Shown: piece by piece, positions 3,901-64,000 of the stretch | Numbering within the stretch: position 1 is the first letter of the stretch | Layout: each line of letters begins with the position of its first letter | Origin: Azolla caroliniana | Taxonomy: Eukaryota > Plantae > Polypodiophyta | Assembly: GCA_043228905.1 (NCBI GenBank) | Contig: JBHGNT010000125.1 | Location: 1-64,000, forward strand | Direction of reading: 5' to 3' | Length of the DNA: 64,000 nt | Notes under the pieces: model-generated | Told to the model about the DNA's origin: nothing | The model's database searches: none | The model's input: the letters and a program-made list of their open reading frames with translations, nothing else | Position numbers and translations under genes: made by a program

Positions 3901-6900
3901 TTGAGAACAGCGTGTGATAAAATTAAAATGTTCATACCTGGCCCGTGTGATATCCGATTTTGGTGTTCAAACATGCGAATCGAAGCTAACAACGCTAGTT
4001 ATGATATGGAATTACAAAATCTAGATTTTGAAACTCAGGTCGAGAAACATGACGAAATTACCAAATTAGAGGAGGGAGTTGAGAAGAGCGCGTGAGTAAG
4101 TTAAAATGTTCATACCTGGCCCGTGTGATATCGGATTTTGGTTTTCAAACATGTGAATCGAAGCTAACAACGTTATGTATGATATGGAATTAAAAAATCA
4201 AGATTTTGAAACTCAGTTCGAGAGACATGACGAAATTACCAAATTTGAGGAGGGAGTTGAGAACAGCGCGTGATAAAATTAAAATGTTCATACCTGGCCC
4301 GTGTGATATCGGATTTTTGTGTTCAAACATTCGAATCGAATCTAACGACGTTACCGATGATATGGAATTAAAAAATCAAGATTTTGAAACTCAGGTCGAG
4401 ACACATGAAGTAATTAGTAAATTCGAGGAGGGAGTTGAGAAGAAGGCGTGAGTAAATTAAAATGTTCATACCTGGCCCATTCGATATCGGATTTTGGTGT
4501 TCAAACATGCGAATCGAAGTTAACAACGCTAGCTATCATATTGAATTACAAAATCCAAATTTTGAAATTCAGGTCGAGAGACATGACGAAATTACCAAAT
4601 TTGAGCAGGGAGTTGAGAATAGCGCGTGAGTAAGTGAAAATGTTCATACCTGGGCCGTGTGATATCGGATTTTTGTGTTCAAACATTCGAATCGAAGCTA
4701 ACAACGCTAGCTATGATATGGAATTAAAAAATCCAGATTTTGGCACTCAGGTCGAGAGACATGACGAAATTACCAAATTTGAGGAGGGAGTTGAGAAGAG
4801 CGTGTGCGTCAATTTAAATGTTCATACCTGGCTCGTGTGATATCGGATTTCTGTGTTCAAATATGCGAATCGAAGCTAACAACGTTACCTATTATATGGA
4901 ATTAGAAAATCAAGATTTTGAAACTCAGTTCGGGAGACATGACGAAATTACCAAATTTGAGGAGGGCGTTGAGAACAGCGCGTGATAAAATTAAAATGTT
5001 CATACCTGGCCCGTGTGATATCCGATTTTGGTGTTCAAACATGCGAATCGAAGCTAACAACGCTAGTTATGATATGGAATTACAAAATCCAGATTTTGAA
5101 ACTCAGGTCGAGAAACATGACGAAATTACGAAATTTGAGGAGGGAGTTGACAATAGCGCGTGAGTAAATTAAAATGTTCATACCTAGCCAGTGTGATATC
5201 AGATTTTTGTGTTCAAACATGCGAATCGAAGCTAACAACGCTACCTATGATATAGAATTAAAAAATCAAGATTTTGAAACTCAGTTCGAGAGACATGACG
5301 AAATTACCAAATTTGAGGAGGGAGTTGAGAAGAGCGCGTGAGTATGTTAAAATGTTCATACCTAGCCCGTGTGATATCGGATTTTTCTGTTCAAATATTC
5401 GAATCGAAGCTAACAACATTACCTATGATATGGAATTAAAAAATCCAGATTTTGAATCCCAGGTCGAGAGACATGAAGAAATTAGTAAATTCGAGGCGGG
5501 AGTTGAGAAGAAGGCGTGAGTAAATTAAAATGTTCATACCTGGCCCATTCGATATCGGATTTTAGTGTTCAAACATACGAATCGAAGCTAACAACGCTAG
5601 CTATGATATGGAATTACAAAATAAAGAATTTGAAACCCAGGTCGAGAGACATGACGAAATTACCAAATTTGAGGAGGGAGTTGCGAAGAGCGCGTGAGTA
5701 AGTTAAAATGTTCATACCTGGCCCGTGTGATATCCGATTTTGGTGTTCAAACATGCGAATCGAAGCTAACAACGCTAGTTATGATATGGAATTACAAAAT
5801 CAAGATTTTAAAACTCAGGTCGAGAAACATGACGAAATTACGAAATTCGAGGAGGGAGTTGAGAAGAAGGCGTGAGTAAATTAAAATGTTCATACCTAGC
5901 CAGTGTGATATCAGATTTTTGTGTTCAAACATGCGAATCGAAGCTAACAACGCTACCTATGATATGGAATTACAAAATCCAGATTTCGAAACCCAGGTCA
6001 AGAGACATGACGAAATTACCAAATTTGAGGAGGGAGTTGAGAATAGCGCGTGAGTAAGTTAAAATGTTCATACCTGGCCCGTGTGATATCCGATTTTTGT
6101 GTTCAAACATTCGAATCGAAGATAACAACGTTACCTATGCTATGGAATTACAAAATCCAGATTTCGAAACCCAGGTCGAGAGACATGACGAAATTACCAA
6201 ATTTGAGGAGGGAGTTGAGAATAGCGCGTAAGTAAGTTAAAATTTTCATACCTGGCCCGTGTGATATCCGATTTCTGTGTTCAAACATTCGAATCGAAGC
6301 TAACAATGTTACTTATGATATGGAATTAGAAAATCAAGATTTTGAAACTCAGTTCGAGAGACATGACGAAATTACCAAATTAGAGGAGGGAGTTGAGAAG
6401 AGCGCGTGAGTATGTTAAAATGTTCATACCTGGCCCTTGTGATATCCGATTTTTGTGTTCAAACATTCGAATCGAATCTAACGACGTTACCGATGATATG
6501 GAATTAAAAAATTAAGATTTTGGAACTCAGGTCGAGAGACATGAAGAAATTAGTAAATTCGAGGAGGGAGTTGAGAAGAAGGCGTGAGTAAATTAAAATG
6601 TTCATACCTGGCCCATTCGATATCGGATTTTGGTGTTCAAACATGCGAATCGAAGCTAACAACGCTAGCTATCATATGGAATTACAAAATCCAAATTTTG
6701 AAATTCAGGTCGAGAGACATGACGAAATTACCAAATTTGAGGAGGGAGTTGAGAAGAGCGCGTGAGTAAGTGAAAATGTTCATACCTGGGCCGTGTGATA
6801 TCGGATTTTTGTGTTCAAACATTCGAATCGAAGCTAACAACGCTAGCTATGATATGGAATTAAAAAATCCAGATTTTGATACTCAGGTCGAGAGACATGA

Positions 6901-9900
6901 CGAAATTACCAAATTTGAGGAGGGAGTTGAGAAGAGCGCGTGCGTAAATTTAAATGTTCATACCTGGCTCGTGTGATATCGGATTTTTGTGTTCAAATAT
7001 GCGAATCGAAGCTAACAACGTTACCTATTATATGGAATTAGAAAATCAAGATTTTGAAACTCAGTTCGGGAGACATGACGAAATTACCAAATTTGAGGAG
7101 GGCGTTGAGAACAGCGCGTGATAAAATTAAAATGTTCATACCTGGCCCGTGTGATATCCGATTTTGGTGTTCAAACATGCGAATCGAAGCTAACAACGCT
7201 AGTTATGATATGGAATTACAAAATCCAGATTTTAAAACTCAGGTCGAGAAACATGACGAAATTACGAAATTTGAGGAGGGAGTTGACAATAGCGCGTGAG
7301 TAAATTAAAATGTTCATACCTAGCCAGTGTGATATCAGATTTTTGTGTTCAAACATGCGAATGGAAGCTAACAACGCTACCTATGATATGGAATTAAAAA
7401 ATCCAGATTTCGAAACCCAGGTCGAGAGACATGACGAAATTACCAAATTTGAGGAGGGAGTTGAGAATAGCGCGTAAGTAAGTTAAAATGTTCATACCTG
7501 GCCCGTGTGATATCCGATTCTGTGTTCAAACATTCGAATCGAAGCTAACAATGTTACTTATGATATGGAATTAGAAAATCAAGATTTTGAAACTCAGTTC
7601 GAGAGACATGACGAAATTACCAAATTAGAGGAGGGAGTTGAGAAGAGTGCGTGAGTATGTTAAAATGTTCATACCTGGCCCTTGTGATATCCGATTTTTG
7701 TGTTCAAACATTCGAATCGAATCTAACGACGTTACTGATGATATGGAATTAAAAAATTAAGATTTTGGAACTCAGGTCGAGAGACATGAAGTAATTAGTA
7801 AATTCGAGGAGGGAGTTGAGAAGAAGGCGTGAGTAAATTAAAATGTTCATACCTGGCCCATTCGATATCGGATTTTGGTGTTCAAACATGCGAATCGAAG
7901 CTAACAACGCTAGCTATCATATGGAATTACAAAATCCAAATTTTGAAATTCAGGTCGAGAGACATGACGAAATTACCAAATTTGAGCAGGGAGTTGAGAA
8001 TAGCGCGTGAGTAAGTGAAAATGTTCATACCTGGGCCGTGTGATATCGGATTTTTGTGTTCAAACATTCGAATCGAAGCTAACAACGCTAGCTATGATAT
8101 GGAATTAAAAAATCCAGATTTTGATACTCAGGTCGAGAGACATGACGAAATTACCAAATTTGAGGAGGGAGTTGAGAAGAGCGCGTGCGTAAATTTAAAT
8201 GTTCATACCTGGCTCGTGTGATATCGGATTTTTGTGTTCAAATATGCGAATCGAAGCTAACAACGTTACCTATTATATGGAATTAGAAAATCAAGATTTT
8301 GAAACTCAGTTCGGGAGACATGACAAAATTACCAAATTTGAGGAGGGAGTTGAGAATAGCGCGTGAGTAAGTTAAAATGTTCATACCTGGCCCGTGTGAT
8401 ATCCGATTTTGGTGTTCAAACATGCGAATCGAAGCTAACAACGCTAGTTATGATATGGAATTACAAAATCCAGATTTTGAAACTCAGGTCGAGAAACATG
8501 ACGAAATTACGAAATTTGAGGAGGGAGTTGACAATAGCGCGTGAGTAAATTAAAATGTTCATACCTAGCCAGTGTGATATCAGATTTTTGTGTTCAAACA
8601 TGCGAATCGAAGCTAACAACGCTACCTATGATATGGAATGAAAAAATCAAAATTTTGAAACTCAGTTCGAGAGACATGACGAAATTACCAAATTTGAGGA
8701 GGGAGTTGAGAACAGCGCGTGATAAAATTAAAATGTTCTTACCTGGCCCGTGTGATATCCGATTTTGGTGTTCAAACATGCGAATCGAAGCCAACAACGC
8801 TAGTTATGATATGGAATTACAAAATCCAGATTTTGAAACTCAGCTCGAGAAACATGACGAAATTACGAAATTTGAGGAGGGAGTTGACAATAGCGCGTGA
8901 GTAAATTAAAATGTTCATACCTAGCCAGTGTGATATCAGATTTTTGTGTTCAAACATACGAATCGAAGCTAACAACGTTACCTATGATATGGAATTTAAA
9001 AATCAAGATTTTAAAACTTAGGTCGAGAGACATGAAGAAATTAGTAAATTCGAGCCGGGAGTTGAGAAGAAGGCGTGAGTAAATTAAAATGTTCATACTT
9101 GGCCCATTCGAAATCGGATTTTAGTGTTCAAACATACGAATCGAAGCTAACAACGCTAGCTATGATATGGAATTACAAAATCCAGATTTTGAAACCCAGG
9201 TCAAGCGACATGACGAAATTACCAAATTTCAGGAGGGAGTTGAGAATAGCGCGTGAGTAAGTGAAAATGTTCATACCTGGGCCGTGTGATATCGGATTTT
9301 TGTGTTCAAACATTCGAATCGAAGCTAACAACGCTAGCTATGATATGGAATTAAAAAATCCAGATTTTGACACTCAGGTCGAGAGACATGACGAAATTAC
9401 CAAATTTGAGGAGGGAGTTGAGAACAGCGCGTGAGTAAGTTAAAATGTTGATACCTGGACCGTGTGATCTCGGATTTTTGTGGACAAACATTCGAATCGA
9501 AGATAACAACGTTACCTATGCTATGGAATTACAAAATCAAGATTTTGAAACCCAGGTCGAGAGACATGACGAAATTACCAAATTTGAGGAGGGAGTTGAG
9601 AAGAGCGCGTGCGTAAGGTAAAATGTTCATACCTGGCCCTTGTGATATCGGATTTTTGTGTTCAAACATTCGAATCGAAGCTAACAACGTTACCTATGAT
9701 ATGGAATTTAAAAATCAAGATTTTAAAACTCAGGTCGAGAGACATGAAGAAATTAGTAAATTCGAGGAGGGAGTTGAGAAGAACCGTGAGTAAATTAAAA
9801 TGTTCATACCTGGCCCATTCGATATCGGATTTTGGTGTTCAAACATGCGAATCGAAGTTAACAACGCTAGCTATCATATGAAATTACAAAATCCAAATTT

Positions 9901-12900
9901 TGAAATTCAGGTCGAGAGACATGACGAAATTACCAAATTTGAGCAGGGAGTTGAGAATAGCGCGTGAGTAAGTGAAAATGTTCATACCTGGGCCGTGTGA
10001 TATCGGATTTTTGTGTTCAAACATTCGAATCGAAGCTAACAACGCTAGCTATGATATTGAATTAAAAAATCCAGATTTTGACACTCAGGTCAAGAGACAT
10101 GAGGAAATTACCAAATTTAAGGAGGGAGTTGAGAAGAGCGCGTGCGTAAATTTAAATGTTCATACCTGGCTCGTGTGATATCGGATTTCTGTGTTCAAAT
10201 ATGCGAATCGAAGCTAACAACGTTACCTATTATATGGAATTAGAAAATCAAGATTTTGAAACTCAGTTCGGGAGACATGACGAAATTACCAAATTTGAGG
10301 AGGGAGTTGAGAACAGCGCGTGATAAAATTAAAATGTTCATACCTGGCCCGTGTGATATCCGATTTTGGTGTTCAAACATGCGAATCGAAGCTAACAACG
10401 CTAGTTATGATATGGAATTATAAAATCCAGATTTTGAAACTCAGGTCGAGAAACATGACGAAATTACGAAATTTGAGGAGGGAGTTGACAATAGCGCGTG
10501 AGTAAATTAAAATGTTCATACCTAGCCAGTGTGATATCAGATTTTTGTGTTCAAACATGCGAATCGAAGCTAACAACGCTACCTATGATATGGAATTAAA
10601 AAATCCAGATTTCAAAACCCAGGTCGAGAGACATGACGAAATTACCAAATTTGAGGAGGGAGTTGAGAATAGCGCGTAAGTAAGTTAAAATGGTCATACC
10701 TGGCCCGTGTGATATCCGATTTCTGTGTTCAAACATTCGAATCGAAGCTAACAATGTTACTTATGATATGGAATTAGAAAATCAAGATTTTGAAACTCAG
10801 TTCGAGAGACATGACGAAATTACCAAATTAGAGGAGGGAGTTGAGAAGAGCGCGTGAGTATGTTAAAATGTTCATACCTGGCCCTTGTGATATCGGATTT
10901 TTGTGTTCAAACATTCGAATCGAAGCTAACAACGTTACCTATGATATGGAATTTAAAAATCAAGATTTTAAAACTCAGGTCGAGAGACATGAAGTAATTA
11001 GTAAATTCGAGGAGAGAGTTGAGAAGAAGGCGTGAGTAAATTAAAATGTTCATACCTGGCCCATTCGATATCGGATTTTGGTGTTCAAACATGCGAATCG
11101 AAGCTAACAACGCTAGCTATCATATGGAATTACAAAATCCAAATTTTGAAATTCAGGTCGAGAAACATGACGAAATTACCAAATTTGAGGAGGGAGTTGA
11201 GAATAGCGCGTGAGTAAATTTAAATGTTCATACCTGGCCCGTGTGATATCGGATTTTTGTGTTCAAACTTGCGAATCGAAGCTAACAACGCTACCTATGA
11301 TATGGAATTAAAAAATCAAGATTTTGAAACTCAGTTCAAGAGACATGACGAAATTACCAAATTAGAGGAGGGAGTTGAGAAGAGCGCGTGAGTATGTTAA
11401 AATATTCATACCTGGCCCTTGTGATATCGGATTTTTGTGTTCAAACATTCAAATCGAAGCTAACAACGTTACCTATAATATGGAATTTAAAAATCAAGAT
11501 TTTGAAACTCAGTTCGGGAGACCTGACGAAATTACCAAATTTGAGAAGGGAGTTGAGAACAGCGTGTGATAAAATTAAAATGTTCATACCTGGCCCGTGT
11601 GATATCCGATTTTGGTGTTCAAACATGCGAATCGAAGCTAACAACGCTAGTTATGATATGGAATTACAAAATCCAGATTTTGAAACTCAGGTCGAGAAAC
11701 ATGACGAAATTACCAAATTAGAGGAGGGAGTTCAGAAGAGCGCGTGAGTAAGTTAAAATGTTCATACCTGGCCCGTGTGATATCGGATTTTGGTTTTCAA
11801 ACATGTGAATCGAAGCTAACAACGTTACGTATGATATGGAATTAAAAAATCAAGATTTTGAAACTCAGTTCGAGAGACATGACGAAATTACCAAATTTGA
11901 GGAGGGAGTTGAGAACAGCGCGTGATAAAATTAAAGTGTTCATACCTGGCCCGTGTGATATCGGATTTTTGTGTTCAAACATTCGAATCGAATCTAACGA
12001 CGTTACCGATGATATGGAATTAAAAAATCAAGATTTTGAAACTCAGGTCGAGACACATGAAGTAATTAGTAAATTCGAGGAGGGAGTTGAGAAGAAGGCG
12101 TGAGTAAATTAAAATGTTCATACCTGGCCCATTCGATATCGGATTTTGGTGTTCAAACATGCGAATCGAAGTTAACAACGCTAGCTATCATATTGAATTA
12201 CAAAATCCAAATTTTGAAATTCAGGTCGAGAGACATGACGAAATTACCAAATTTGAGCAGGGAGTTGAGAATAGCGCGTGAGTAAGTGAAAATGTTCATA
12301 CCTGGGCCGTGTGATATAGGATTTTTGTGTTCAAACATTCGAATCGAAGCTAACAACGCTAGCTATGATATGGAATTAAAAAATCCAGATTTTGACACTC
12401 AGGTCGAGAGACATGACGAAATTACCAAATTTGAGGAGGGAGTTGAGAAGAGCGTGTGCGTAAATTTAAATGTTCATACCTGGCTCGTGTGATATCGGAT
12501 TTTTGTGTTCAAATATGCGAATCGAAGCTAACAACGTTACCTATTATATGGAATTAGAAAATCAAGATTTTGAAACTCAGCTCGGGAGACCTGACGAAAT
12601 TACCAAATTTGAGGAGGGAGTTGAGAACAGCGTGTGATAAAATTAAAATGTTCATACCTGGCCCGTGTGATATCCGATTTTGGTGTTCAAACATGCGAAT
12701 CGAAGCTAACAACGCTAGTTATGATATGGAATTACAAAATCCAGATTTTGAAACTCAGGTCGAGAAACATGACGAAATTACGAAATTTGAGGAGGGAGTT
12801 GACAATAGCGCGTGAGTAAATTAAAATGTTCATACCTAGCCAGTGTGATATCAGATTTTTGTGTTCAAACATGCGAATCGAAGCTAACAACGCTACCTAT

Positions 12901-14400
12901 GATATGGAATTAAAAAATCCAGATTTCGAGACCCAGGTCGAGAGACATGACGAAATTACCAAATTTGAGGAGGGAGTTGAGAATAGCGCGTAAGTAAGTT
13001 AAAATGTTCATACCTGGCCCGTGTGATATCCGATTTCTGTGTTCAAACATTCGAATCGAAGCTAACAATGTTACTTATGATATGGAATTAGAAAATCAAG
13101 ATTTTGAAACTCAGTTCGAGAGACATGACGAAATTACCAAATTAGAGGAGGGAGTTGAGAAGAGCGCGTGAGTATGTTAAAATGTTCATACCTGGCCCTT
13201 GTGATATCCGATTTTGGTGTTCAAACATTCGAATCGAATCTAACGACGTTACCGATGATATGGAATTAAAAAATTAAGATTTTGGAACTCAGGTCGAGAG
13301 ACATGAAGAAATTAGTAAATTCGAGGAGGGAGTTGAGAAGAAGGCGTGAGTAAATTAAAATGTTCATACGTGGCCCATTCGATATCGGATTTTGGTGTTC
13401 AAACATGCGAATCGAAGCTAACAACGCTAGCTATCATATGGAATTACAAAATCCAAATTTTGAAATTCAGGTCGAGAGACATGACGAAATTACCAAATTT
13501 GAGCAGGGAGTTGAGAATAGCGCGTGAGTAAGTGAAAATGTTCATACCTGGGCCGTGTGATATCGGATTTTTGTGTTCAAACATTCGAATCGAAGCTAAC
13601 AACGCTACCTATGATATGGAATTAAAAAATCCAGATTTTGATACTCAGGTCGAGAGACATGACGAAATTACCAAATTTGAGGAGGGAGTTGAGAAGAGCG
13701 CGTGCGTAAATTTAAATGTTCATACCTGGCTCGTGTGATATCGGATTTTTGTGTTCAAATATGCGAATCGAAGCTAACAACGTTACCTATTATATGGAAT
13801 TAGAAAATCAAGATTTTGAAACTCAGTTCGGGAGACATGACAAAATTACCAAATTTGAGGAGGGAGTTGAGAATAGCGCGTGAGTAAGTTAAAATGTTCA
13901 TACCTGGCCCGTGTGATATCCGATTTTGGTGTTCAAACATGCGAATCGAAGCTAACAACGCTAGTTATGATATGGAATTACAAAATCTAGATTTTGAAAC
14001 TCAGGTCGAGAAACATGACGAAATTACGAAATTTGAGGAGGGAGTTGACAATAGCACGTGAGTAAATTAAAATGTTCATACCTAGCCAGTGTGATATCAG
14101 ATTTTTGTGTTCAAACATGCGAATCGAAGCTAACAACGCTACCTATGATATGGAATTAAAAAATCAAAATTTTGAAACTCAGTTCGAGAGACATGACGAA
14201 ATTACCAAATTTGAGGAGGGAGTTGAGAACAGCGCGTGATAAAATTAAAATGTTCTTACCTGGCCCGTGTGATATCCGATTTTGGTGTTCAAACATTCGA
14301 ATCGAAGCTAACAACGCTAGTTATGATATGGAATTACAAAATCCAGATTTTGAAACTCAGGTCGAGAAACAGGACGAAATTACGAAATTTGAGGAGGGAG
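1000..14400 (+). repeat. Interleaved block duplications in the forward block (offsets 3916, 7652, 5516-5517, 1245)
   Basis: 1002/4918 to 1956/5872 (3916 = 22 monomers); 3189/10841 to 4982/12634 (7652, ~43 monomers); 7054/12570 to 8719/14236 (~31 monomers); 6584/7829 (7 monomers minus 1 bp). Confidence 0.8.
12100..13345 (+). repeat. Representative 7-monomer (1246-bp) higher-order repeat unit
   Basis: Ordered variant classes GCCCATTCG > GTGAAA..GGGCCG > GCGTAAATTT..GGCTCG > GATAAAA > CTAGCCAG > TAAGTAAG..TTCTG > GAGTATG..GCCCTTG, then back to GCCCATTCG. The same order occurs at 6584-7828, 9786-11031 and on the - strand at 19484-20729, 42261-43506 and 62470-63715. Confidence 0.8.
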
Positions 14401-16442
14401 TTGACAATAGCGCGTGAGTATGTTAAAATGTTCATACCTGGCCCTTGTGATATCGGATTTTTGTGTTCAAACATTCGAATCGAAGCTAACAACGTTACCT
14501 ATGATATGGAATTTAAAAATCAAGATTTTAAAACTCAGGTCGACAGACATGAAGAAATTAGTAAATTCGATGAGGGAGTTGAGAAGAAGGCGTGAGTAAA
14601 TTAAAATGTTCATACCTGGCCCATTCGATATCGGATTTTGGTGTTCAAACATGCGAATCGAAGCTAACAACGCTAGCTATGATATGGAATTACAAAATCC
14701 AGATTTTGACACTCAGGTCAAGAGACATGACGAAATTACCAAATTTAAGGAGGGAGTTGAGAATAGCGCGTGAGTAAATTTAAATGGTCATACCTGGCTC
14801 GTGTGATATCGGATTTTTGTATTCAAACATGCGAATCGAAGCTAACAACGTTACCTATTATATGGAATTAGAAAATCAAGATTTTGAAACTCAGTTCGGG
14901 AGACATGACGAAATTATCAAATTTGAGGAGGGAGTTGAGATGAGCGCGTGAGTAAGTTAAAATGTTCATACCTGGACCGTGTGATATCCGATTTTTGTGT
15001 TCAAACATTCGAATCGAATCTAACGACGTTACCGATGATATGGAATTAAAAAATTAAGATTTTGGAACTCAGGTCGAGAGACATGAAGTAATTAGTAAAT
15101 TCGAGGAGGGAGTTGAGACGAAGGCGTGAGTAAATTAAAATGTTCATACCTGGCCCATTCGATATCGGATTTTGGTGTTCAAACATGCGAATCGAAGCTA
15201 ACAACGCTAGCTATGATATGGAATTAAAAAATCCAGATTTTGACACTCAGGTCGAGAGACATGACGAAATTACCAAATTTGTGGAGGGAGTTGAGAAGAG
15301 CGCGTGCGTAAATTTAAATGTTCATACCTGGCTCGTGTGATATCGGATTTTTGTGTTCAAATATTCGAATCGAAGCTAACAACATTACCTATGATATGGA
15401 ATTAAAAAATCCAGATCGAGAGACATCACGAAATTACCAAATTTGAGGAGAGAGTTGAGAAGAAGGCGTGAGTAAATTAAAATGTTCATACCTGGCCCAT
15501 TCGATATCTATGATATGGGATTAGAAAATCAAGATTTTGAAACTCAGTTCGCGAGACATGACGAAATTACCAAATTTGAGGAGGGAGTTGAAAACAGCGC
15601 GTGAGTAAGTTAAAATGTTGATACCTGGACCGTGTTATCTCGGATTTTTGTGGTCAAACATTCGAATCGAAGCTAACAACGTTGCCTATGATATGGAATT
15701 GCAAAATCAAGATTTTGAAACCCAGGTCGAGAGACATGACGAAATTACCAAATTTGAGGAGGGAGTTGAGAAGAGCGCGTGCGTATGTTAAAATGCTCAT
15801 ACCTGGACCGTGTGATATCCGATTTTTGTGTTCAAACATTCGAATCGAATCTAACGACGTTACCGATGATATGGAATTAAAAAATTAAGATTTTGGAACT
15901 CAGGTCGAGAGACATGAAGTAATTAGTAAATTCGAGGAGGGAGTTGAGAAGAAGGCGTGAGTAAATTAAAATGTTCATACCTGGCCCATTCGATATCGGA
16001 TTTTGGTGTTCAAACATGCGAATCGAAGTTAACAACGCTAGCTATCATATGGAATTACAAAATACAAATTTTGAAATTCAGGTCGAGAGACATGTCGAAA
16101 TTACCAAATTTGAGCAGGGAGTTGAGAATAGCGCGTGAGTAAGTGAAAATGTTCATACCTGGGCCGTGTGATATCGGATTTTTGTGTTCAAACATTCGAA
16201 TCGAAGCTAACAACGCTAGCTATGATATGGAATTAAGAAATCCAGATTTTGACACTCAGGTCGAGAGACATGACGAAATTACCAAATTTGAGGAGGGAGT
16301 TGAGAAGAGCGCGTGCGTAAATTTAAATGTTCATACCTGGCTCGTGTGATATCGGATTTTTGTGTTCAAATATGCGAATCGAAGCTAACAACGTTACCTA
16401 TTATATGGAATTAGAAAATCAAGATTTTGAAACTCAGTTCGG

Positions 16443-16864
16443 GAGACATGACAAAATTACCAAATTTGAGGAGGGAGTTGAGAAGCGCACGTCAGTATGT
16501 TAAAATGTTCATTCCTGGCTCGTGTGATATCGGATTTTTGTGTTCAAACCCTCCCTCATCGAATTTACTAATTTCTTCATGTCTGTCGACCTGAGTTTTA
16601 AAATCTTGATTTTTAAATTCCATATCATAGGTAACGTTGTTAGCTTCGATTCGAATGTTTGAACACAAAAATCCGATATCACAAGGGCCAGGTATGAACA
16701 TTTTAACATACTCACGCGCTCTATATCATAGGTAGCGTTGTTAGCTTCGATTCGAATGTTTGAACACAAAAATCCGATATCACACGAGCCAGGAATGAAC
16801 ATTTTAACATACTGACGTGCGCTTCTCAACTCCCTCCTCAAATTTGGTAATTTTGTCATGTCTC
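16443..16864. repeat. Perfect 107-bp inverted repeat (16443-16549 / 16758-16864) with a 208-bp spacer
   Basis: Both arms carry the rare variant GACAAAATTACC...GAGAAGCGCACGTCAGTATGTTAAAATGTTCATTCCTGGCTCGTG...TGTTCAAAC in opposite orientations. Confidence 0.9.
16541..16560. other. Strand-inversion junction of the array (convergent, tail-to-tail)
   Basis: TGTTCAAAC|C|CTCCCTCATC: the forward monomer ends at 16549 and the reverse monomer begins at 16551. C16550 matches neither consensus. Confidence 0.95.
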
Positions 16865-19800
16865 TCGACCTGAGTTCCAAAATCTTAATTTTTTAATTCC
16901 ATATCATCGGTAACGTCGTTAGATTCGATTCAAATGTTTGAACACAAAAATCGGATATCACACGGGCCAGGTATGAACATTTTTACTTACTCACGCGCTC
17001 TTCTCAACTCCCTCCTCAAATTTGGTAATTTCGTCATGTCGCTTGACCTGGGTTTCAAAATCTGGATTTTGTAATTCCATATCATAGCTAGAGTTGTTAG
17101 CTTCGATTCGTATGTTTGAACACTAAAATCCGATATCGAATGGGCCAGGTATGAACATTTTAATTTACTCACGCCTTCTTCTCAACTCCCGGCTCGAATT
17201 TACTAATTTCTTCATGTCTCTCGACCTAAGTTTCAAAATCTTGATTTTTAAATTCCATATCATAGGTAACGTAGTTAGCTTCGATTCGTATGTTTGAACA
17301 CAAAAATCCGATATCACACGGGCCAGGTATGAACATTTTAAGTTACTCACGCGCTCTTCTAAACTCCCTCCTCCAATTTGGTAATTTCGTCATGTCTCTC
17401 GAACTGAGTTTCAAAATCTTGATTTTTTAATTCCATATCATAACTAGCGTTGTTAGCTTCGATTCGCAAGTTTGAACACCAAAATCCGATATCACACGGG
17501 CCAAGTATGAACATTTTAACTTACGCACGCGCTCTTCTCAACTCCCTCCTCAAAGTTGGTAATTTCGTCATGTTTCTTGAACTTAGTTTCAAAATCTTGA
17601 TTTTTTAATTCCATATCATACGTAACGTTGTTAGCTCCGATTCACATGTTTGAACACCAAAATCCGATATCACACGGGCTAGGTATGAACATTTTAACTT
17701 ACGCACGCGCTCTTCTCAACTCCCTCCTCAAATTTGGTAATTTCGTCATGTCTCTCGACCTGGGTTTCAAAATCTTGATTTTGTAATTCCATAGCATAGG
17801 TAACGTTGTTATCTTCGATTCGAATGTTTGTCCACAGAAATCCGAGATCACACGGTCCAGGTATCAACATTTTAACTTACTCACGCGCTGTTCTCAACTC
17901 CCTCCTCAAATTTGGTAATTTCGTCATGTCTCTCGACCTGAGTGTCAAAATCTGGATTTTTTAATTCCATATCATAGCTAGCGTTGTTAGCTTCGATTCG
18001 AATGTTTGAACACAAAAATCCGATATCACACGGCCCAGGTATGAACATTTTCACTTACTCACGCGCTATTCTCAACTCCCTCCTGAAATTTGGTAATTTC
18101 GTTATGTCGCTTGACCTGGGTTTCAAAATCTGGATTTTGTAATTCCATATCATAGCTAGCGTTGTTAGCTTCGATTCGTATGTTTGAACACTAAAATCCG
18201 ATTTCGAATGGGCCAGGTATGAACATTTTAATTTACTCACGCCTTCTTCTCAACTCCCGGCTCGAATTTACTAATTTCTTCATGTCTCTCGACCTAAGTT
18301 TCAAAATCTTGATTTTTAAATTCCATATCATAGGTAACGTTGTTAGCTTCGATTCGTATGTTTGAACACAAAAATCTGATATCACACTGGCTAGGTATGA
18401 ACATTTTAATTTACTCACGCGCTATTGTCAACTCCCTCCTCAAATTTCGTAATTTCGTCATGTTTCTCGACCTGAGTTTCAAAATCTGGATTTTGTAATT
18501 CCATATCATAACTAGCGTTGTTAGCTTCGATTCGCATGTTTGAACACCAAAATCGGATATCACACGGGCCAGGTAAGAACATTTTAATTTTATCACGCGC
18601 TGTTCTCAACTCCCTCCTCAAATTTGGTAATTTCGTCATGTCTCTCGAACTGAGTTTCAAAATTTTGATTTTTTAATTCCATATCATAGGTAGCGTTGTT
18701 AGCTTCGATTCGCATGTTTGAACACAAAAATCTGATATCACACTGGCTAGGTATGAACATTTTAATTTACTCACGCGCTATTGTCAACTCCCTCAAATTT
18801 CGTAATTTCGTCATGTTTCTCGACCTGAGTTTCAAAATCTGGATTTTGTAATTCCATATCATAACTAGCGTTGTTAGCTTCGATTCGCATGTTTGAACAC
18901 CAAAATCCGATATCACACGGGCCAGGTATGAACATTTTAACTTACTCACGCGCTATTCTCAACTCCCTCCTCAAATTTGGTAATTTTGTCATGTCTCCCG
19001 AACTGAGTTTCAAAATCTTGATTTTCTAATGCCATATAATAGGTAACGTTGTTAGCTTCGATTCGCATATTTGAACACAAAAATCCGATATCACACGAGC
19101 CAGGTATGAACATTTAAATTTACGCACGCGCTCTTCTCAACTCCCTCCTCAAATTTGGTAATTTCGTCATGTCTCTCGACCTGAGTATCAAAATCTGGAT
19201 TTTTTAATTCCATATCATAGCTAGCGTTGTTAGCTTCGATTCGAATGTTTGAACACAAAAATCCGATATCACACGGCCCAGGTATGAACATTTTCACTTA
19301 CTCACGCGCTATTCTCAACTCCCTGCTCAAATTTGGTAATTTCGTCATGTCTCTCGACCTGAATTTCAAAATTTGGATTTTGTAATTCCATATGATAGCT
19401 AGCGTTGTTAGCTTCGATTCGCATGTTTGAACACCAAAATCCGATATCGAATGGGCCAGGTATGAACATTTTAATTTACTCACGCCTTCTTCTCAACTCC
19501 CTCCTCGAATTTACTAATTACTTCATGTCTCTCGACCTGAGTTCCAAAATCTTAATTTTTTAATTCCATATCATCGGTAACGTCGTTAGATTCGATTCGA
19601 ATGTTTGAACACAAAAATCGGATATCACAAGGGCCAGGTATGAACATTTTAACATACTCACGCGCTCTTCTCAACTCCCTCCTCTAATTTGGTAATTTCG
19701 TCATGTCTCTCGAACTGAGTTTCAAAATCTTGATTTTCTAATTCCATATCATAAGTAACATTGTTAGCTTCGATTCGAATGTTTGAACACAGAAATCGGA

Positions 19801-20149
19801 TATCACACGGGCCAGGTATGAACATTTTAACTTACTTACGCGCTATTCTCAACTCCCTCCTCAAATTTGGTAATTTCGTCATGTCTCTCGACCTGGGTTT
19901 CGAAATCTGGATTTTTTAATTCCATATCATAGGTAGCGTTGTTAGCTTCGATTCGCATGTTTGAACACAAAAATCTGATATCACACTGGCTAGGTATGAA
20001 CATTTTAATTTACTCACGCGCTATTGTCAACTCCCTCCTCAAATTTCGTAATTTCGTCATGTTTCTCGACCTGAGTTTCAAAATCTGGATTTTGTAATTC
20101 CATATCATAACTAGCGTTGTTAGCTTCGATTCTCATGTTTGAACACCAA

Positions 20150-23100
20150 AATCCGATATCACACGGGCCAGGTATGAACATTTTAATTTTATCACGCGCT
20201 GTTCTCAACTCCCTCCTCAAATTTGGTAATTTCGTCATGTCTCCCGAACTGAGTTTCAAAATCTTGATTTTCTAATTCCATATAATAGGTAACGTTGTTA
20301 GCTTCGATTCGCATATTTGAACACAGAAATCCGATATCACACGAGCCAGGTATGAACATTTAAATTTACGCACACGCTCTTCTCAACTCCCTCCTCAAAT
20401 TTGGTAATTTCGTCATGTCTCTCGACCTGAGTGTCAAAATCTAGATTTTTTAATTCCATATCATAGCTAGCGTTGTTAGCTTCGATTCGAATGTTTGAAC
20501 ACAAAAATCCGATATCACACGGCCCAGGTATGAACATTTTCACTTACTCACGCGCTATTCTCAACTCCCTGCTCAAATTTGGTAATTTCGTCATGTCTCT
20601 CGACCTGAATTTCAAAATTTGGATTTTGTAATTCAATATGATAGCTAGCGTTGTTAACTTCGATTCGCATGTTTGAACACCAAAATCCGATATCGAATGG
20701 GCCAGGTATGAACATTTTAATTTACTCACGCCTTCTTCTCAACTCCCTCCTCGAATTTACTAATTACTTCATGTGTCTCGACCTGAGTTTCAAAATCTTG
20801 ATTTTTTAATTCCATATCATCGGTAACGTCGTTAGATTCGATTCGAATGTTTGAACACAAAAATCCGATATCACACAGGCCAGGTATGAACATTTTAATT
20901 TTATCACGCGCTGTTCTCAACTCCCTCCTCAAATTTGGTAATTTCGTCATGTCTCTCGAACTGAGTTTCAAAATCTTGATTTTTTTATTCCATATCATAC
21001 GTAACGTTGTTAGCTTCGATTCACATGTTTGAAAACCAAAATCCGATATCACACGGGCCAGGTATGAACATTTTAACTTACTCACGCGCTCTTCTCAACT
21101 CCCTCCTCTAATTTGGTAATTTCGTCATGTTTCTCGACCTGAGTTTCAAAATCTGGATTTTGTAATTCCATATCATAACTAGCGTTGTTAGCTTCGATTC
21201 GCATGTTTGAACACCAAAATCGGATATCACACGGGCCAGGTATGAACATTTTAATTTTATCACACGCTGTTCTCAACTCCCTCCTCAAATTTGGTAATTT
21301 CGTCATGTCTCCCGAACTGAGTTTCAAAATCTTGATTTTTAAATTCCATATCATAGGTAACGTTGTTAGCTTCGATTTGAATGTTTGAACACAAAAATCC
21401 GATATCACAAGGGCCAGGTATGAATATTTTAACATACTCACGCGCTCTTCTCAACTCCCTCCTCTAATTTGGTAATTTCGTCATGTCTCTCGAACTGAGT
21501 TTCAAAATCTTGATTTTTTAATTCCATATCATAGGTAGCGTTGTTAGCTTCGATTCGCAAGTTTGAACACAAAAATCCGATATCACACGGGCCAGGTATG
21601 AACATTTAAATTTACTCACGCGCTATTCTCAACTCCCTCCTCAAATTTGGTAATTTCGTCATGTTTCTCGACCTAAATTTCAAAATTTGGATTTTGTAAT
21701 TCCATATGATAGCTAGCGTTGTTAACTTCGATTCGCATGTTTGAACACCAAAATCCGATATCGAATGGGCCAGGTATGAACATTTTAATTTACTCACGCC
21801 TTCTTCTCAACTCCCTCATCGAATTTACTAATTTCTTCATGTCTCTCGACCTAAGTTTCAAAATCTTGATTTTTTAATTCCATATCATAGGTAACGTTGT
21901 TAGCTTCGATTCGTATGTTTCAACACAAAAATCTGATATCACACTGGCTAGGTATGAACATTTTAATTTACTCACGCGCTATTGTCAACTCCCTCCTCAA
22001 ATTTCGTAATTTCGTCATGTTTCTCGACCTGAGTTTCAAAATCTGGATTTTGTAATTCCATATCATAACTAGCGTTGTTAGCTTCGATTCGCATGTTTGA
22101 ACACCAAAATCGGATATCACACGGGCCAGGTATGAACATTTTAATTTTATCACGCGCTGTTCTCAACTCCCTCCTCAAATTTGGTAATTTCGTCATGTCT
22201 CTCGACCTGAGTTTCAAAATCTTGATTTTTAAATTCCATATGATAGGTAACGTTGTTAGCTTCGATTCGAATGTTTGAACACAAAAATCTAATATCACAC
22301 TGGCTAGGTATGAACATTGTAATTTACTCACGCGCTATTGTCAACTCCCTCCTCAAATTTCGTAATTTCGTCATGTTTCTCGACCTGAGTTTCAAAATCT
22401 GGATTTTATAATTCCATATCATAACTAACGTTGTTAGCTTCGATTCGCATGTTTGAACACCAAAATCGGATATCACACGGGCCAGGTATGAACATTTTAA
22501 TTTTATCACGCGCTGTTCTCAACTCCCTCCTCAAATTTGGTAATTTCGTCATGTCTCCCGAACTGAGTTTCAAAATCTTGATTTTCTAATTCCATATAAT
22601 AGGTAACGTTGTTAGCTTCGATTCGCATATTTGAACACAGAAATCGGATATCACACGAGCCAGGTATGAACATTTAAATTTACGCACGCGCTCTTCTCAA
22701 CTCCCTCCTCAAATTTGGTAATTTCCTCATGTCTCTTGACCTGAGTGTCAAAATTTGGATTTTTTAATTCCATATCATAGCTAGCGTTGTTAGCTTCGAT
22801 TCGAATGTTTGAACACAAAAATCCGATATCACACGGCCCAGGTATGAACATTTTCACTTACTCACGCGCTATTCTCAACTCCCTGCTCAAATTTGGTAAT
22901 TTCGTCATGTCTCTCGACCTGAATTTCAAAATTTGGATTTTGTAATTTCATATGATAGCTAGCGTTGTTAACTTCGATTCGCATGTTTGAACACCAAAAT
23001 CCGATATCGAATGGGCCAAGTATGAACATTTTAATTTACTCACGGCTTCTTCTCAACTCCCTCCTCGAATTTACTAATTTCTTCATGTCTCTCGACCTGA

Positions 23101-26100
23101 GTTTTAAAATCTTGATTTTTAAATTCCATATCATAGGTAACGTTGTTAGCTTCGATTCGAATGTTTGAACACAAAAATCCGATATCACAAGGGCCAGGTA
23201 TGAACATTTTAACATACTCACGCGCTCTTCTCAACTCCCTCCTCTAATTTGGTAATTTCGTCATGTCTCTCGAACTGAGTTTCAAAATCTTGATTTTTTA
23301 ATTCCATATCATAGGTAACGTTGTTAGCTTCGATTCGCATTTTTGAACACAAAAATCCGATATCACACGAGCCAGGTATGAACATTTAAATTTACGCACG
23401 CGCTCTTCTCAACTCCCTCCTCAAATTTGGTAATTTCGTCATGTCTTTCGACCTGAGTTTCAAAATCTGGATTTTGTAATTCCATATCATAACTAGCGTT
23501 GTTAGCTTCGATTCGCATGTTTGAACACCAAAATCGGATATCACACGGGCCAGGTATGAACATTTTAATTTTATCACACGCTGTTCTCAACTCCCTCCTC
23601 AAATTTGGTAATTTCGTCATGTCTCCCGAACTGAGTTTCAAAATCTTGATTTTTAAATTCCATATCATAGGTAACGTTGTTAGCTTCGATTTGAATGTTT
23701 GAACACAAAAATCCGATATCACAAGGGCCAGGTATGAATATTTTAACATACTCACGCGCTCTTCTCAACTCCCTCCTCTAATTTGGTAATTTCGTCATGT
23801 CTCTCGAACTGAGTTTCAAAATCTTGATTTTTTAATTCCATATCATAGGTAGCGTTGTTAGCTTCGATTCGCAAGTTTGAACACAAAAATCCGATATCAC
23901 ACGGGCCAGGTATGAACATTTAAATTTACTCACGCGCTATTCTCAACTCCCTCCTCAAATTTGGTAATTTCGTCATGTTTCTCGACCTAAATTTCAAAAT
24001 TTGGATTTTGTAATTCCATATGATAGCTAGCGTTGTTAACTTCGATTCGCATGTTTGAACACCAAAATCCGATATCGAATGGGCCAGGTATGAACATTTT
24101 AATTTACTCACGCCTTCTTCTCAACTCCCTCATCGAATTTACTAATTTACTTCATGTCTCTCGACCTGAGTTCCAAAATCTTAATTTTTTAATTCCATAT
24201 CATCGGTAACGTCGTTAGATTCGATTCGAATGTTTGAACACAAAAATCGGATATCACAAGGGCCAGGTATGAACATTTTAACATACTCACGCGCTCTTCT
24301 CAACTCCCTCCTCTAATTTGGTAATTTCGTCATGTCTCTCGAACTGAGTTTCAAAATCTTGATTTTCTAATTCCATATCATAAGTAACATTGTTAGCTTC
24401 GATTCGAATGTTTGAACACAGAAATCGGATATCACACGGGCCAGGTATGAACATTTTAACTTACTTACGCGCTATTCTCAACTCCCTCCTCAAATTTGGT
24501 AATTTCGTCATGTCTCTCGACCTGGGTTTCGAAATCTGGATTTTTTAATTCCATATCATAGGTAGCGTTGTTAGCTTCGATTCGCATGTTTGAACACCAA
24601 AATCGGATATCACACGGGCCAGGTATGAACATTTTAATTTTATCACGCGCTGTTCTCAACTCCCTCCTCAAATTTGGTAATTTCGTCATGTCTCCCGAAC
24701 TGAGTTTCAAAATCTTGATTTTCTAATTCCATATAATAGGTAACGTTGTTAGCTTCGATTCGCATATTTGAACACAGAAATCCGATATCACACGAGCCAG
24801 GTATGAACATTTAAATTTACGCACACGCTCTTCTCAACTCCCTCCTCAAATTTGGTAATTTCGTCATGTCTCTCGACCTGAGTGTCAAAATCTAGATTTT
24901 TTAATTCCATATCATAGCTAGCGTTGTTAGCTTCGATTCGAATGTTTGAACACAAAAATCCGATATCACACGGCCCAGGTATGAACATTTTCACTTACTC
25001 ACGCGCTATTCTCAACTCCCTGCTCAAATTTGGTAATTTCGTCATGTCTCTCGACCTGAATTTCAAAATTTGGATTTTGTAATTCAATATGATAGCTAGC
25101 GTTGTTAACTTCGATTCGCATGTTTGAACACCAAAATCCGATATCGAATGGGCCAGGTATGAACATTTTAATTTACTCACGCCTTCTTCTCAACTCCCTC
25201 CTCGAATTTACTAATTACTTCATGTGTCTCGACCTGAGTTTCAAAATCTTGATTTTTTAATTCCATATCATCGGTAACGTCGTTAGATTCGATTCGAATG
25301 TTTGAACACAAAAATCCGATATCACACAGGCCAGGTATGAACATTTTAATTTTATCACGCGCTGTTCTCAACTCCCTCCTCAAATTTGGTAATTTCGTCA
25401 TGTCTCTCGAACTGAGTTTCAAAATCTTGATTTTTTTATTCCATATCATACGTAACGTTGTTAGCTTCGATTCACATGTTTGAAAACCAAAATCCGATAT
25501 CACACGGGCCAGGTATGAACATTTTAACTTACTCACGCGCTCTTCTCAACTCCCTCCTCTAATTTGGTAATTTCGTCATGTTTCTCGACCTGAGTTTCAA
25601 AATCTGGATTTTGTAATTCCATATCATAACTAGCGTTGTTAGCTTCGATTCGCCTGTTTGAACACCAAAATCGGATATCACACGGGCCAGGTATGAACAT
25701 TTTAATTTTATCACACGCTGTTCTCAACTCCCTCCTCAAATTTGGTAATTTCGTCATGTCTCCCGAACTGAGTTTCAAAATCTTGATTTTTAAATTCCAT
25801 ATCATAGGTAACGTTGTTAGCTTCGATTTGAATGTTTGAACACAAAAATCCGATATCACAAGGGCCAGGTATGAATATTTTAACATACTCACGCGCTCTT
25901 CTCAACTCCCTCCTCTAATTTGGTAATTTCGTCATGTCTCTCGAACTGAGTTTCAAAATCTTGATTTTTTAATTCCATATCATAGGTAGCGTTGTTAGCT
26001 TCGATTCGCAAGTTTGAACACAAAAATCCGATATCACACGGGCCAGGTATGAACATTTAAATTTACTCACGCGCTATTCTCAACTCCCTCCTCAAATTTG

Positions 26101-27900
26101 GTAATTTCGTCATGTTTCTCGACCTAAATTTCAAAATTTGGATTTTGTAATTCCATATGATAGCTAGCGTTGTTAACTTCGATTCGCATGTTTGAACACC
26201 AAAATCCGATATCGAATGGGCCAGGTATGAACATTTTAATTTACTCACGCCTTCTTCTCAACTCCCTCATCGAATTTACTAATTTCTTCATGTCTCTCGA
26301 CCTAAGTTTCAAAATCTTGATTTTTAAATTCCATATCATAGGTAACGTTGTTAGCTTCGATTCGTATGTTTCAACACAAAAATCTGATATCACACTGGCT
26401 AGGTATGAACATTTTAATTTACTCACGCGCTATTGTCAACTCCCTCCTCAAATTTCGTAATTTCGTCATGTTTCTCGACCTGAGTTTCAAAATCTGGATT
26501 TTGTAATTCCATATCATAACTAGCGTTGTTAGCTTCGATTCGCATGTTTGAACACCAAAATCGGATATCACACGGGCCAGGTATGAACATTTTAATTTTA
26601 TCACGCGCTGTTCTCAACTCCCTCCTCAAATTTGGTAATTTCGTCATGTCTCTCGACCTGAGTTTCAAAATCTTGATTTTTAAATTCCATATGATAGGTA
26701 ACGTTGTTAGCTTCGATTCGAATGTTTGAACACAAAAATCTGATATCACACTGGCTAGGTATGAACATTGTAATTTACTCACGCGCTATTGTCAACTCCC
26801 TCCTCAAATTTCGTAATTTCGTCATGTTTCTCGACCTGAGTTTCAAAATCTGGATTTTATAATTCCATATCATAACTAGCGTTGTTAGCTTCGATTCGCA
26901 TGTTTGAACACCAAAATCGGATATCACACGGGCCAGGTATGAACATTTTAATTTTATCACGCGCTGTTCTCAACTCCCTCCTCAAATTTGGTAATTTCGT
27001 CATGTCTCCCGAACTGAGTTTCAAAATCTTGATTTTCTAATTCCATATAATAGGTAACGTTGTTAGCTTCGATTCGCATATTTGAACACAGAAATCGGAT
27101 ATCACACGAGCCAGGTATGAACATTTAAATTTACGCACGCGCTCTTCTCAACTCCCTCCTCAAATTTGGTAATTTCCTCATGTCTCTTGACCTGAGTGTC
27201 AAAATTTGGATTTTTTAATTCCATATCATAGCTAGCGTTGTTAGCTTCGATTCGAATGTTTGAACACAAAAATCCGATATCACACGGCCCAGGTATGAAC
27301 ATTTTCACTTACTCACGCGCTATTCTCAACTCCCTGCTCAAATTTGGTAATTTCGTCATGTCTCTCGACCTGAATTTCAAAATTTGGATTTTGTAATTTC
27401 ATATGATAGCTAGCGTTGTTAACTTCGATTCGCATGTTTGAACACCAAAATCCGATATCGAATGGGCCAAGTATGAACATTTTAATTTACTCACGGCTTC
27501 TTCTCAACTCCCTCCTCGAATTTACTAATTTCTTCATGTCTCTCGACCTGAGTTTTAAAATCTTGATTTTTAAATTCCATATCATAGGTAACGTTGTTAG
27601 CTTCGATTCGAATGTTTGAACACAAAAATCCGATATCACAAGGGCCAGGTATGAACATTTTAACATACTCACGCGCTCTTCTCAACTCCCTCCTCTAATT
27701 TGGTAATTTCGTCATGTCTCTCGAACTGAGTTTCAAAATCTTGATTTTTTAATTCCATATCATAGGTAACGTTGTTAGCTTCGATTCGCATTTTTGAACA
27801 CAAAAATCCGATATCACACGAGCCAGGTATGAACATTTAAATTTACGCACGCGCTCTTCTCAACTCCCTCCTCAAATTTGGTAATTTCGTCATGTCTCTC
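20150..27900 (-). repeat. ~3.3-kb block repeated at 4451-bp offset (about 20150-23440 / 24600-27890)
   Basis: Offset 4451 for 20337/24788, 21972/26423 and 23040/27491. Shared rare variants are AACATTGTAA, GGATTTTATA, CACGGCTTC and GCATTTTTGAAC. Confidence 0.88.
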
Positions 27901-28741
27901 GACCTGAGTATCAAAATCTGGATTTTTTAATTCCATATCATAGGTAGCGTTGTTAGCTTCGATTCGAATGTTTGACCACAAAAATCCGAGATAACACGGT
28001 CCACGTATCAACATTTTAACTTACTCACGCGCTGTTTTCAACTCCCTCCTCAAATTTGGTAATTTCGTCATGTCTCGCGAACTGAGTTTCAAAATCTTGA
28101 TTTTCTAATCCCATATCATAGATATCGAATGGGCCAGGTATGAACATTTTAATTTACTCACGCCTTCTTCTCAACTCTCTCCTCAAATTTGGTAATTTCG
28201 TGATGTCTCTCGATCTGGATTTTTTAATTCCATATCATAGGTAATGTTGTTAGCTTCGATTCGAATATTTGAACACAAAAATCCGATATCACACGAGCCA
28301 GGTATGAACATTTAAATTTACGCACGCGCTCTTCTCAACTCCCTCCTCAAATTTGGTAATTTCGTCATGTCTCTCGACCTGAGTGTCAAAATCTGGATTT
28401 TTTAATTCCATATCATAGCTAGCGTTGTTAGCTTCGATTCGCATGTTTGAACACAAAAATCGGATATCACACGGTCCAGGTATGAACATTTTAACTTACT
28501 CACGCGCTCATCTCAACTCCCTCCTCAAATTTGATAATTTCGTCATGTCTCCCGAACTGAGTTTCAAAATCTTGATTTTCTAATTCCATATAATAGGTAA
28601 CGTTGTTAGCTTCGATTCGCATGTTTGAATACAAAAATCCGATATCACACGAGCCAAGTATGAACATTTAAATTTACTCACGCGCTATTCTCAACTCCCT
28701 CCTTAAATTTGGTAATTTCGTCATGTCTCTTGACCTGAGTG

Positions 28742-59134: not shown

Positions 59135-59239
59135 CTCTCGACCTGAGTATCAAAATCTGGATTTTTTAATTCCATATCATAGGTAGCGTTGTTAGCTTCG
59201 ATTCGAATGTTTGAACACAAAAATCCGATATCACACGGC

Positions 59240-63700: not shown

Positions 63701-64000
63701 TTTTAATTTACTCACGGCTTCTTCTCAACTCCCTCATCGAATTTACTAATTTCTTCACGTCTGTCGACCTGAGTTTTAAAATCTTGATTTTTACATTCCA
63801 TATCATAGGTAACGTTGTTAGCTTCGATTCGAATGTTTGAACACAAAAATCCGATATCACAAGGGCCAGGTATGAACATTTTAACATACTCACGCGCTCT
63901 TCTCAACTCCCTCCTCTAATTTGGTAATTTCGTCATGTCTCTCGACCTGGGTTTCGAAATCTGGATTTTTTAATTCCATATCATAGCTAGCGTTGTTAGC

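What the first reader, a model, noticed from the sequence alone, without database searches (positions are those of the whole stretch)
16443..16864. Fold-back inversion signature at the satellite strand switch
Seen: the last 107 bp of the forward block are an exact reverse complement of 16758-16864, including a rare monomer variant (AGAAGCGCACGTCAG, ATTCC). I saw this variant only once elsewhere in the forward block (~2300, imperfect). The arms are 208 bp apart, and the join has one unexplained base and an imperfect microhomology (TTCAAAC vs CTCAAC). The forward monomer before the arm is a type normally followed by TAGCGCGTGAGTAAG (cf. ~8357, ~13874), but here it switches to the rare variant. 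Established: short-loop fold-back junctions arise when a 3' end snaps back and primes on itself (breakage-fusion-bridge or replication template switching). Inference: the orientation flip was made by fold-back synthesis rather than a simple two-break inversion.
Basis: partly seen in the sequence, partly recalled or inferred. Interest (0 to 1): 0.8.

Follow-up and report, generated by a model that had tools for sequence, protein, structure and literature searches.

The report
Fold-back patch at satellite strand switch
Where a 178-base plant tandem repeat changes direction, the last 65 to 107 bases before the switch mirror a rare repeat variant 208 bases away, likely the scar of a broken DNA end that folded back, copied a short stretch and rejoined in step with the repeat, which is a known kind of repair.

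Summary
In detail: 16443-16549 is the exact reverse complement of 16758-16864, at the only strand switch of a 64-kb, 178-bp satellite array. It is weaker than stated. The same 107-mer is also exact at 39532 and 53933, 846 exact inverted matches of at least 107 bp link the two blocks, and only 65 bp of the arm are diagnostic. Still, a random join gives so close an exact partner in only 0.7-4% of trials. Beyond the patch the forward block steps, in register, into another monomer type; it is not a mirror of the reverse block (87.5% identity, array background). The join has at most 1 nt of microhomology. Best reading (0.55): a broken end folded back, copied 65-107 nt, then rejoined in register to a forward monomer through 42 bp of identity. 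Whether the forward block was newly copied or flipped by a second break is open. No contig of 8 public runs bridged the join (inconclusive), so an artefact is not excluded. The mechanism is known from yeast and fly repair, and strand switches are common in satellites. The scan noted similar junctions in other genomes, none in this satellite.

The parts
1..16442 (+). Forward block of the 178-bp satellite; mosaic of the same higher-order repeat family as the reverse block, about 0.7% from its best donors, not a mirror of it
16443..16484 (+). In-register switch interval: 42 bp identical between donor monomer type 5 (16719) and resident type 20 (for example 18852, 8283, 13800)
16485..16549 (+). 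Diagnostic patch, 65 bp with 8 type-5 alleles, exact reverse complement of 16758-16822
16550..16550 (.). Junction base C; both parental sequences predict A
16551..16617 (-). Broken type-4 monomer (starts at monomer position 112); start of the reverse block and of the loop; holds TCGAAT at 16559-16564
16618..16718 (-). 101-bp truncated monomer, landmark of the higher-order repeat (5 copies in the reverse block)
16719..16757 (-). First 39 bp of type-5 monomer, ending in the 8-bp palindrome ATTCGAAT (16750-16757); end of the loop
16758..16864 (-). Right arm, likely template (type-5 monomer positions 40-146)
16865..64000 (-). Rest of the reverse block, with further type-5 copies at 34122, 39532, 48523, 53933 and a 14,401-bp near-perfect duplication

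Best explanation
The strand switch carries a 65-107-base mirror copy of a rare monomer 208 bases away, likely made when a broken end folded back, copied that short stretch and then rejoined in register to another satellite monomer. Shown: the reverse block begins inside a type-4 monomer at 16551; the arm is an exact copy of type 5 from monomer position 40; it changes to type 20 inside 42 identical bases without a phase shift; the join has at most 1 nt of overlap. Inferred: (1) a break at 16551 and resection of over 200 nt freed the 3' end of the bottom strand; (2) it looped back over 208 nt and primed at 16758, perhaps held by a 6-nt internal complement; (3) synthesis ran 65-107 nt and the new end, now in the opposite orientation, came off; (4) because every monomer is about 88% alike, it annealed in phase to a type-20 monomer, either the far end of a second break (inversion with a templated patch) or an intact array that it went on to copy backwards (inverted duplication). 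In a one-directional array the fold-back supplies the only long homology by which two oppositely oriented ends can pair. No function is proposed; it is likely a neutral repair scar. The polymerase is not identifiable from sequence.
For: Chance of such a close exact partner 0.7-4%. The patch type occurs within 3 mismatches in 6 of 362 other monomers. The terminal segment is 65 bp, shortest of 25; a switch within 107 bp of a random point has a 15-17% chance. The patch begins right at the join, leaving at most 10 bp of homology on the loop side (first type 5/20 difference at position 50), which suits synthesis from the break better than later conversion. A 6-nt complement (ATTCGA) lies 8 nt inside the broken end and next to the template start; 4.7% by chance for random pairs. 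Yeast fold-back inversions of 2 to about 150 bp captured by the second end (PMC11724301, passages) and snap-back SD-MMEJ (PMC5728401, passages) give the same three-step anatomy.
Against: No terminal microhomology, whereas 13 of 21 human fold-back junctions had 2-8 bp and 3 more had about 300 bp (PMC3907307) and Pol theta needs two terminal pairs (PMC11292364). The 6-nt complement is weak: 42 of 360 template positions score as well for this end, and it is not the best duplex (-6.9 against -7.7 kcal/mol). The 208-nt loop exceeds fly (under about 25 nt) and yeast (41 nt) loops. The donor cannot be pinned to the neighbour: three copies are identical over 107 bp. A second type-5-like patch lies at 2232-2409 with no strand switch, so such patches also arise by ordinary in-register exchange. 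Both flanks carry unshared changes (6-8 per kb) while the arms have none (chance 0.18-0.47 if equally old), slightly favouring a younger patch.
Confidence: 0.55

Rival explanations
1. A long mirror duplication formed first (fold-back followed by full replication, or fusion of two sister ends broken 208 bp apart), and later in-register deletions removed all but 65-107 bp of the true mirror. This is closest to the first reader's breakage-fusion-bridge reading.
For: The segment after the patch (types 20, 11, 17, 3) is the same higher-order unit 12 monomers on (offset 2133-2136 bp). In-register jumps are frequent (24-28 segments in 16.5 kb). End fusion needs no microhomology. Forward and reverse blocks share most monomer types.
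Against: Mirror identity falls to 87.5% right after the arm. Types 31, 35, 22 and the 101-bp monomer are absent from the forward block. The flank differs from the adjacent unit as much as from four distant ones (6 of 530 bp each), and two forward units are not sister to the adjacent unit (19-20 differences against 17-18 to units 3 and 5). The forward block holds the part of the unit that lies upstream of the break.
Confidence: 0.2
2. A plain two-break inversion joined by end joining came first; later the two imperfect arms paired as a hairpin and the loop-side end of the left arm was corrected to type 5 (quasi-palindrome template switch or gene conversion).
For: No microhomology is needed at the join. 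Type 5 is the nearest partner giving an uninterrupted stem (543 nt at 90% against 66 nt for the nearer 101-bp monomer). Gene conversion tracts in Arabidopsis centromeric satellite average 58.5 bp with nearby donors (10.1101/2025.06.02.657473). Template switches perfect inverted repeats (PMC5453318). Arms are identical while flanks have aged.
Against: The tract must start within the first 10 bp of the arm. No other sign of arm-to-arm exchange: none of the 5 alleles private to the forward flank matches its mirror partner, and none of the rare alleles of the reverse flank is found in its mirror partner.
Confidence: 0.13
3. Coincidence: a two-break inversion whose second break fell in another copy of the same higher-order repeat that already carried a 5/20 hybrid monomer.
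For: Type 5 has 5 copies in the reverse block; a type-5 hybrid exists at 2232-2409; inversions with both breaks near the same landmark are possible if the landmark is fragile.
Against: 0.7-4% for the close partner, times about 0.16 for a switch this near; the 5/20 hybrid was seen nowhere else in the window (the 80-mer at 16430 had no match within 2 mismatches).
Confidence: 0.06
4. Assembly or read artefact: a fold-back chimeric read glued in register to another part of the array.
For: The 31 junction 31-mers are single-copy in the window; chimeric reads do give short-loop inversions (recalled, no call).
Against: A fold-back read gives a long perfect mirror, not 107 bp. The reverse flank has 8 unshared changes per kb in its first 2 kb against 0-4 further out, as expected at an old array edge. 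A 42-bp overlap is too short for long-read assemblers (recalled).
Confidence: 0.06

Closest known systems
Local foldback inverted insertions at double-strand breaks in yeast (PMC11724301; passages read)
   Same: One end folds back, copies 2 to about 150 bp, unwinds and is captured by the other end; leaves a short inverted repeat around a loop.
   Different: There a 10-nt inverted microhomology primes over a 41-nt loop and capture uses 0-5 bp; here no terminal microhomology, a 208-nt loop, capture through 42 bp of in-register satellite identity, and the flanking block ends up inverted.
Snap-back SD-MMEJ and Pol theta stem-loop templated insertions (PMC5728401; PMC11292364; passages)
   Same: Snap-back synthesis creates new homology that bridges the break; 1-nt primers are reported.
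   Different: Loops mostly under 10-25 nt and insertions 3-30 bp; both are several times larger here.
Human fold-back inverted duplications with a spacer (Hermetz 2014, PMC3907307; abstract and passages)
   Same: Inverted arms around an unduplicated spacer; some junctions have insertions instead of microhomology (5 of 21).
   Different: Arms are megabases long, spacers 766-70,466 bp, and most have 2-8 bp of microhomology; here the exact arm is 107 bp.
Quasi-palindrome template switch / four-point model (PMC5453318; passages) and non-allelic gene conversion in CEN178 (10.1101/2025.06.02.657473; passages)
   Same: Short tract that perfects an inverted repeat; in-register return; similar tract length.
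   Different: These act on an existing inverted repeat and do not make the strand switch; the Arabidopsis text has no occurrence of 'inver'.
Strand switches in satellite arrays: human beta, HSat3 and alpha satellites (10.64898/2026.07.22.740206), Tribolium macro-dyads (PMC13081366), cichlid centroids (PMC13652916); passages
   Same: Orientation change inside a tandem array with higher-order repeats.
   Different: Tribolium inversion sites are conserved in thousands of copies and cichlid switches hold 15-kb elements; this is one direct join. The passages read give no base-level mechanism.

Membership tests
Fold-back inverted duplication (breakage-fusion-bridge type) | Inverted arms around a short unduplicated spacer | tested here: met
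   107-bp exact arms, 208-nt spacer
Fold-back inverted duplication (breakage-fusion-bridge type) | Long mirror: the inverted block duplicates the sequence beyond the spacer | tested here: not met
   87.5% on the mirror diagonal beyond the arm; not sister to the adjacent unit; later erosion cannot be excluded
Fold-back inverted duplication (breakage-fusion-bridge type) | 2-8 bp inverted microhomology at the spacer edge | tested here: not met
   0 strict, at most 1 nt
Fold-back inverted duplication (breakage-fusion-bridge type) | Copy gain with terminal deletion or dicentric intermediate; no reciprocal junction | not testable with these tools
   No whole genome held
Foldback / snap-back templated insertion at a break | Short inverted copy of sequence near the break, starting at the junction | tested here: met
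   65-107 bp, partner 208 nt away, 0.7-4% by chance
Foldback / snap-back templated insertion at a break | Primer repeat pair (inverted microhomology) at end and template | tested here: inconclusive
   No terminal pair; internal 6-nt complement, 4.7% for random pairs but 42 of 360 for this end
Foldback / snap-back templated insertion at a break | New end joined through homology made by the synthesis | tested here: met
   42 bp identity, in register
Foldback / snap-back templated insertion at a break | Dependence on Pol theta or Pol delta; known pre-break allele | not testable with these tools
   Needs genetics or an ancestral haplotype
Quasi-palindrome correction / non-allelic gene conversion | Tract flanked by homology on both sides in a pre-existing inverted repeat | tested here: inconclusive
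   42 bp on the outer side, at most 10 bp on the loop side
Quasi-palindrome correction / non-allelic gene conversion | Other exchanged tracts between the arms | tested here: not met
   No shared private alleles across the mirror
Tribolium-type macro-dyad | Conserved inversion site repeated many times | tested here: not met
   One switch in 64 kb; junction 31-mers single-copy in the window; rest of genome untested
Centromeric satellite | CENH3 occupancy | not testable with these tools
   Only suggestive: 178-bp unit, higher-order repeats, high summed depth in runs

The most novel reading that the evidence does not exclude
Strand switches in satellite arrays are generally made by a two-step route particular to tandem repeats: a broken end folds back to write a short piece of opposite orientation, and that piece then pairs in register with any monomer. 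Monomer variants would record this as a short local mirror patch ending in an in-phase switch, so the route could be counted across complete plant and animal assemblies. I found no paper that shows this for satellite junctions, but this is one junction and is not read-confirmed.
Probability: 0.15. Interest if true: 0.6.

Novelty: new member of a known kind. Interest (0 to 1): 0.3.

Why it matters
How one-directional satellite arrays change strand is seldom resolved to the base, because they offer no inverted homology. This junction keeps a readable record, since rare monomer variants act as barcodes. As a single case it is an ordinary repair scar. Its value is the test it suggests: score all strand switches in complete assemblies for a short local mirror patch followed by an in-register switch.

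Tried and rejected
Whole-genome count of the 107-mer and search for a reciprocal junction: not possible, no genome held. Public runs: 20 listed, best share 0.61 of 26 words; 8 of the 20 were laid (X1, X3, X4, X6; X2, X5, X7, X8). No listed piece bridged 16550 in any of the 8. All were contigs, which drop rare variants, the tables were cut (7449 and 2028 pieces not shown) and the individuals may differ, so this says nothing for or against the join. The rare variant itself was listed in X1 and X4. Thermodynamic prediction of the priming site: not the best site. Ongoing conversion between the arms: not found. Raised mutation density beside the join as a sign of error-prone synthesis: not seen in the forward block (6 and 4 per kb near the join, 4-14 elsewhere). 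Forward block as sister of the adjacent unit: not supported. Naming the satellite family: searches gave no match, and sequence search of papers is not available. Earlier scan notes on this sequence: none. No supplements were read; those of the human and Tribolium papers may hold base-level junctions that bear on novelty.

Full report
Setting. The whole window is one 178-bp satellite, about 88% alike between neighbours, with a single strand switch near 16.5 kb. Public runs holding the sequence are of one coded organism and of leaf or plant metagenomes, and earlier scan notes call the genome a plant, likely seed-free (unchecked). No whole genome is held. I split the array into 362 monomers and 36 types. 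The reverse block has a higher-order repeat marked by a 101-bp truncated monomer always followed by type 5, at 16618, 33982, 39392, 48383 and 53793.

The observation. 16443-16549 is the exact reverse complement of 16758-16864 and cannot be extended. The 107-mer is also exact at 39532 and 53933, has 1 mismatch at 34122 and 48523, and 3 mismatches at forward 2264. Exact inverted matches of at least 107 bp between the blocks number 846 of 1665 listed, so length alone means little. What matters is that the match ends at the join and its partner is 208 nt away. Random joins give that in 0.67% (412 of 61,679; 107 bp) to 4.0% (3757 of 93,580; 65 bp) of trials, and removing the recent duplicate does not change this. 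The null was built after seeing the case.

Two junctions. The inner one joins type 5 at monomer position 40 to type 4 at position 112. It is out of phase and has no strict microhomology. Both parents predict A at 16550 and the window has C. The outer one is in phase: the terminal monomer changes from type 5 to type 20 inside 42 identical bases, 16443-16484. The patch is therefore 65-107 bp. A copying parse of the forward block gives 24-28 segments of mean length 590-690 bp, with a 15-17% chance of a switch within 107 bp of a random point; the terminal 65-bp segment was the shortest of 25, though a 36-bp segment appeared at the lowest switch cost.

The forward block is not a mirror. Identity on the mirror diagonal is 87.5% over 15500-16442. 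Types 31, 35, 22 and the 101-bp monomer are missing from it, and several forward types are missing from the reverse block. The 530-bp flank differs at 6 sites from the adjacent unit and at 6 from each of four distant ones. Over 11 monomers, two forward units differ from the adjacent unit at 19-20 columns (3 are a gap) and from units 3 and 5 at 17-18. Some forward monomers do match the near part of the reverse block best, and the order 23-21-36-15 is shared only with that part, so the blocks are close kin. The forward block also holds the stretch that precedes the break in intact units. Both flanks carry 6-8 unshared changes per kb, so the join looks old.

Mechanism. The geometry fits a bottom-strand 3' end at 16551 that looped back and copied from 16758 rightwards. 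The new end then had the opposite orientation and could pair in phase with any monomer. This three-step pattern is described for yeast breaks, with copies of 2 to about 150 bp (PMC11724301, passages), and as snap-back SD-MMEJ (PMC5728401, passages); Pol theta extends stem-loops from two terminal pairs and gives 3-30 bp inverted insertions (PMC11292364, abstract and passages). Against it: no terminal microhomology, a loop longer than in those systems, and only a weak internal 6-nt complement (4.7% of random pairs, 42 of 360 positions for this end, not the best duplex). Human fold-back duplications have long arms, spacers of 766-70,466 bp and mostly 2-8 bp of microhomology (PMC3907307, abstract and passages); this case fails two of those tests and is not filed there. 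ODIRA (PMC10766183) I saw only as a search listing.

Rivals. An eroded long mirror (0.2) is compatible because in-register jumps are frequent and type 20 lies 12 monomers on in the same unit, but nothing of the mirror survives beyond 107 bp. Later hairpin correction or gene conversion (0.13) has good precedent: 58.5-bp tracts in Arabidopsis satellite (10.1101/2025.06.02.657473, passages) and template switches that perfect inverted repeats (PMC5453318, passages); type 5 gives the nearest long stem. It needs the tract to begin in the first 10 bp of the arm, and no other exchange between the arms was found. Coincidence (0.06) is helped by a second type-5-like patch at 2232-2409. Artefact (0.06) stays open: 8 of 20 listed runs were laid and none showed a bridging contig, which is uninformative. 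These weights are my judgement, not a computed posterior.

Novelty. Strand switches in satellites are common: hundreds in human beta and HSat3 arrays and some in active alpha arrays (10.64898/2026.07.22.740206, passages), conserved inversion sites in Tribolium (PMC13081366, passages), inverted elements in cichlid centromeres (PMC13652916, passages), and somatic foldbacks beside centromeres in a tumour (10.64898/2026.05.01.722316, passages). Searches found no base-level account of a satellite switch made by snap-back plus in-register capture; the library is incomplete and no supplements were read. Earlier scan notes report similar junctions in other genomes, mostly judged ordinary, and none for this sequence. 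Verdict: a real, better-than-chance signature of a known repair route in a single junction; interest 0.3.

Noticed in passing
window 32938-44128 and +14401: 14,401-bp tandem duplication with 5 differences in 11,191 bp and none in 6,184 bp: a very recent duplication or an assembly duplication.
   Followed up: partly
window 16618, 33982, 39392, 48383, 53793; 15402 and after the type-8 monomers at 27931, 32973, 47374: Truncated monomers of 101 bp (reverse block only) and 119 bp (both blocks) serve as landmarks of higher-order repeats of about 20-30 monomers.
   Followed up: yes
window 2232-2409: A second type-5-like patch (100 bp, 3 mismatches) that switches in register to a type-21-like tail, without a strand switch.
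   Followed up: partly
window 14334-14511: Hybrid monomer carrying the 5' alleles of the 101-bp monomer joined in register to type 13, a deletion of about nine monomers relative to the reverse unit.
   Followed up: partly
window 16551-18550: The first 2 kb of the reverse block has 8 unshared changes per kb against 0-4 further out: the junction edge seems to escape homogenisation.
   Followed up: partly
whole window: CpG observed/expected is 1.39, so no CpG depletion. If the genome is a seed-free plant, as earlier notes suggest, a long 178-bp higher-order satellite may be a candidate centromere repeat; a search found no matching paper.
   Followed up: no
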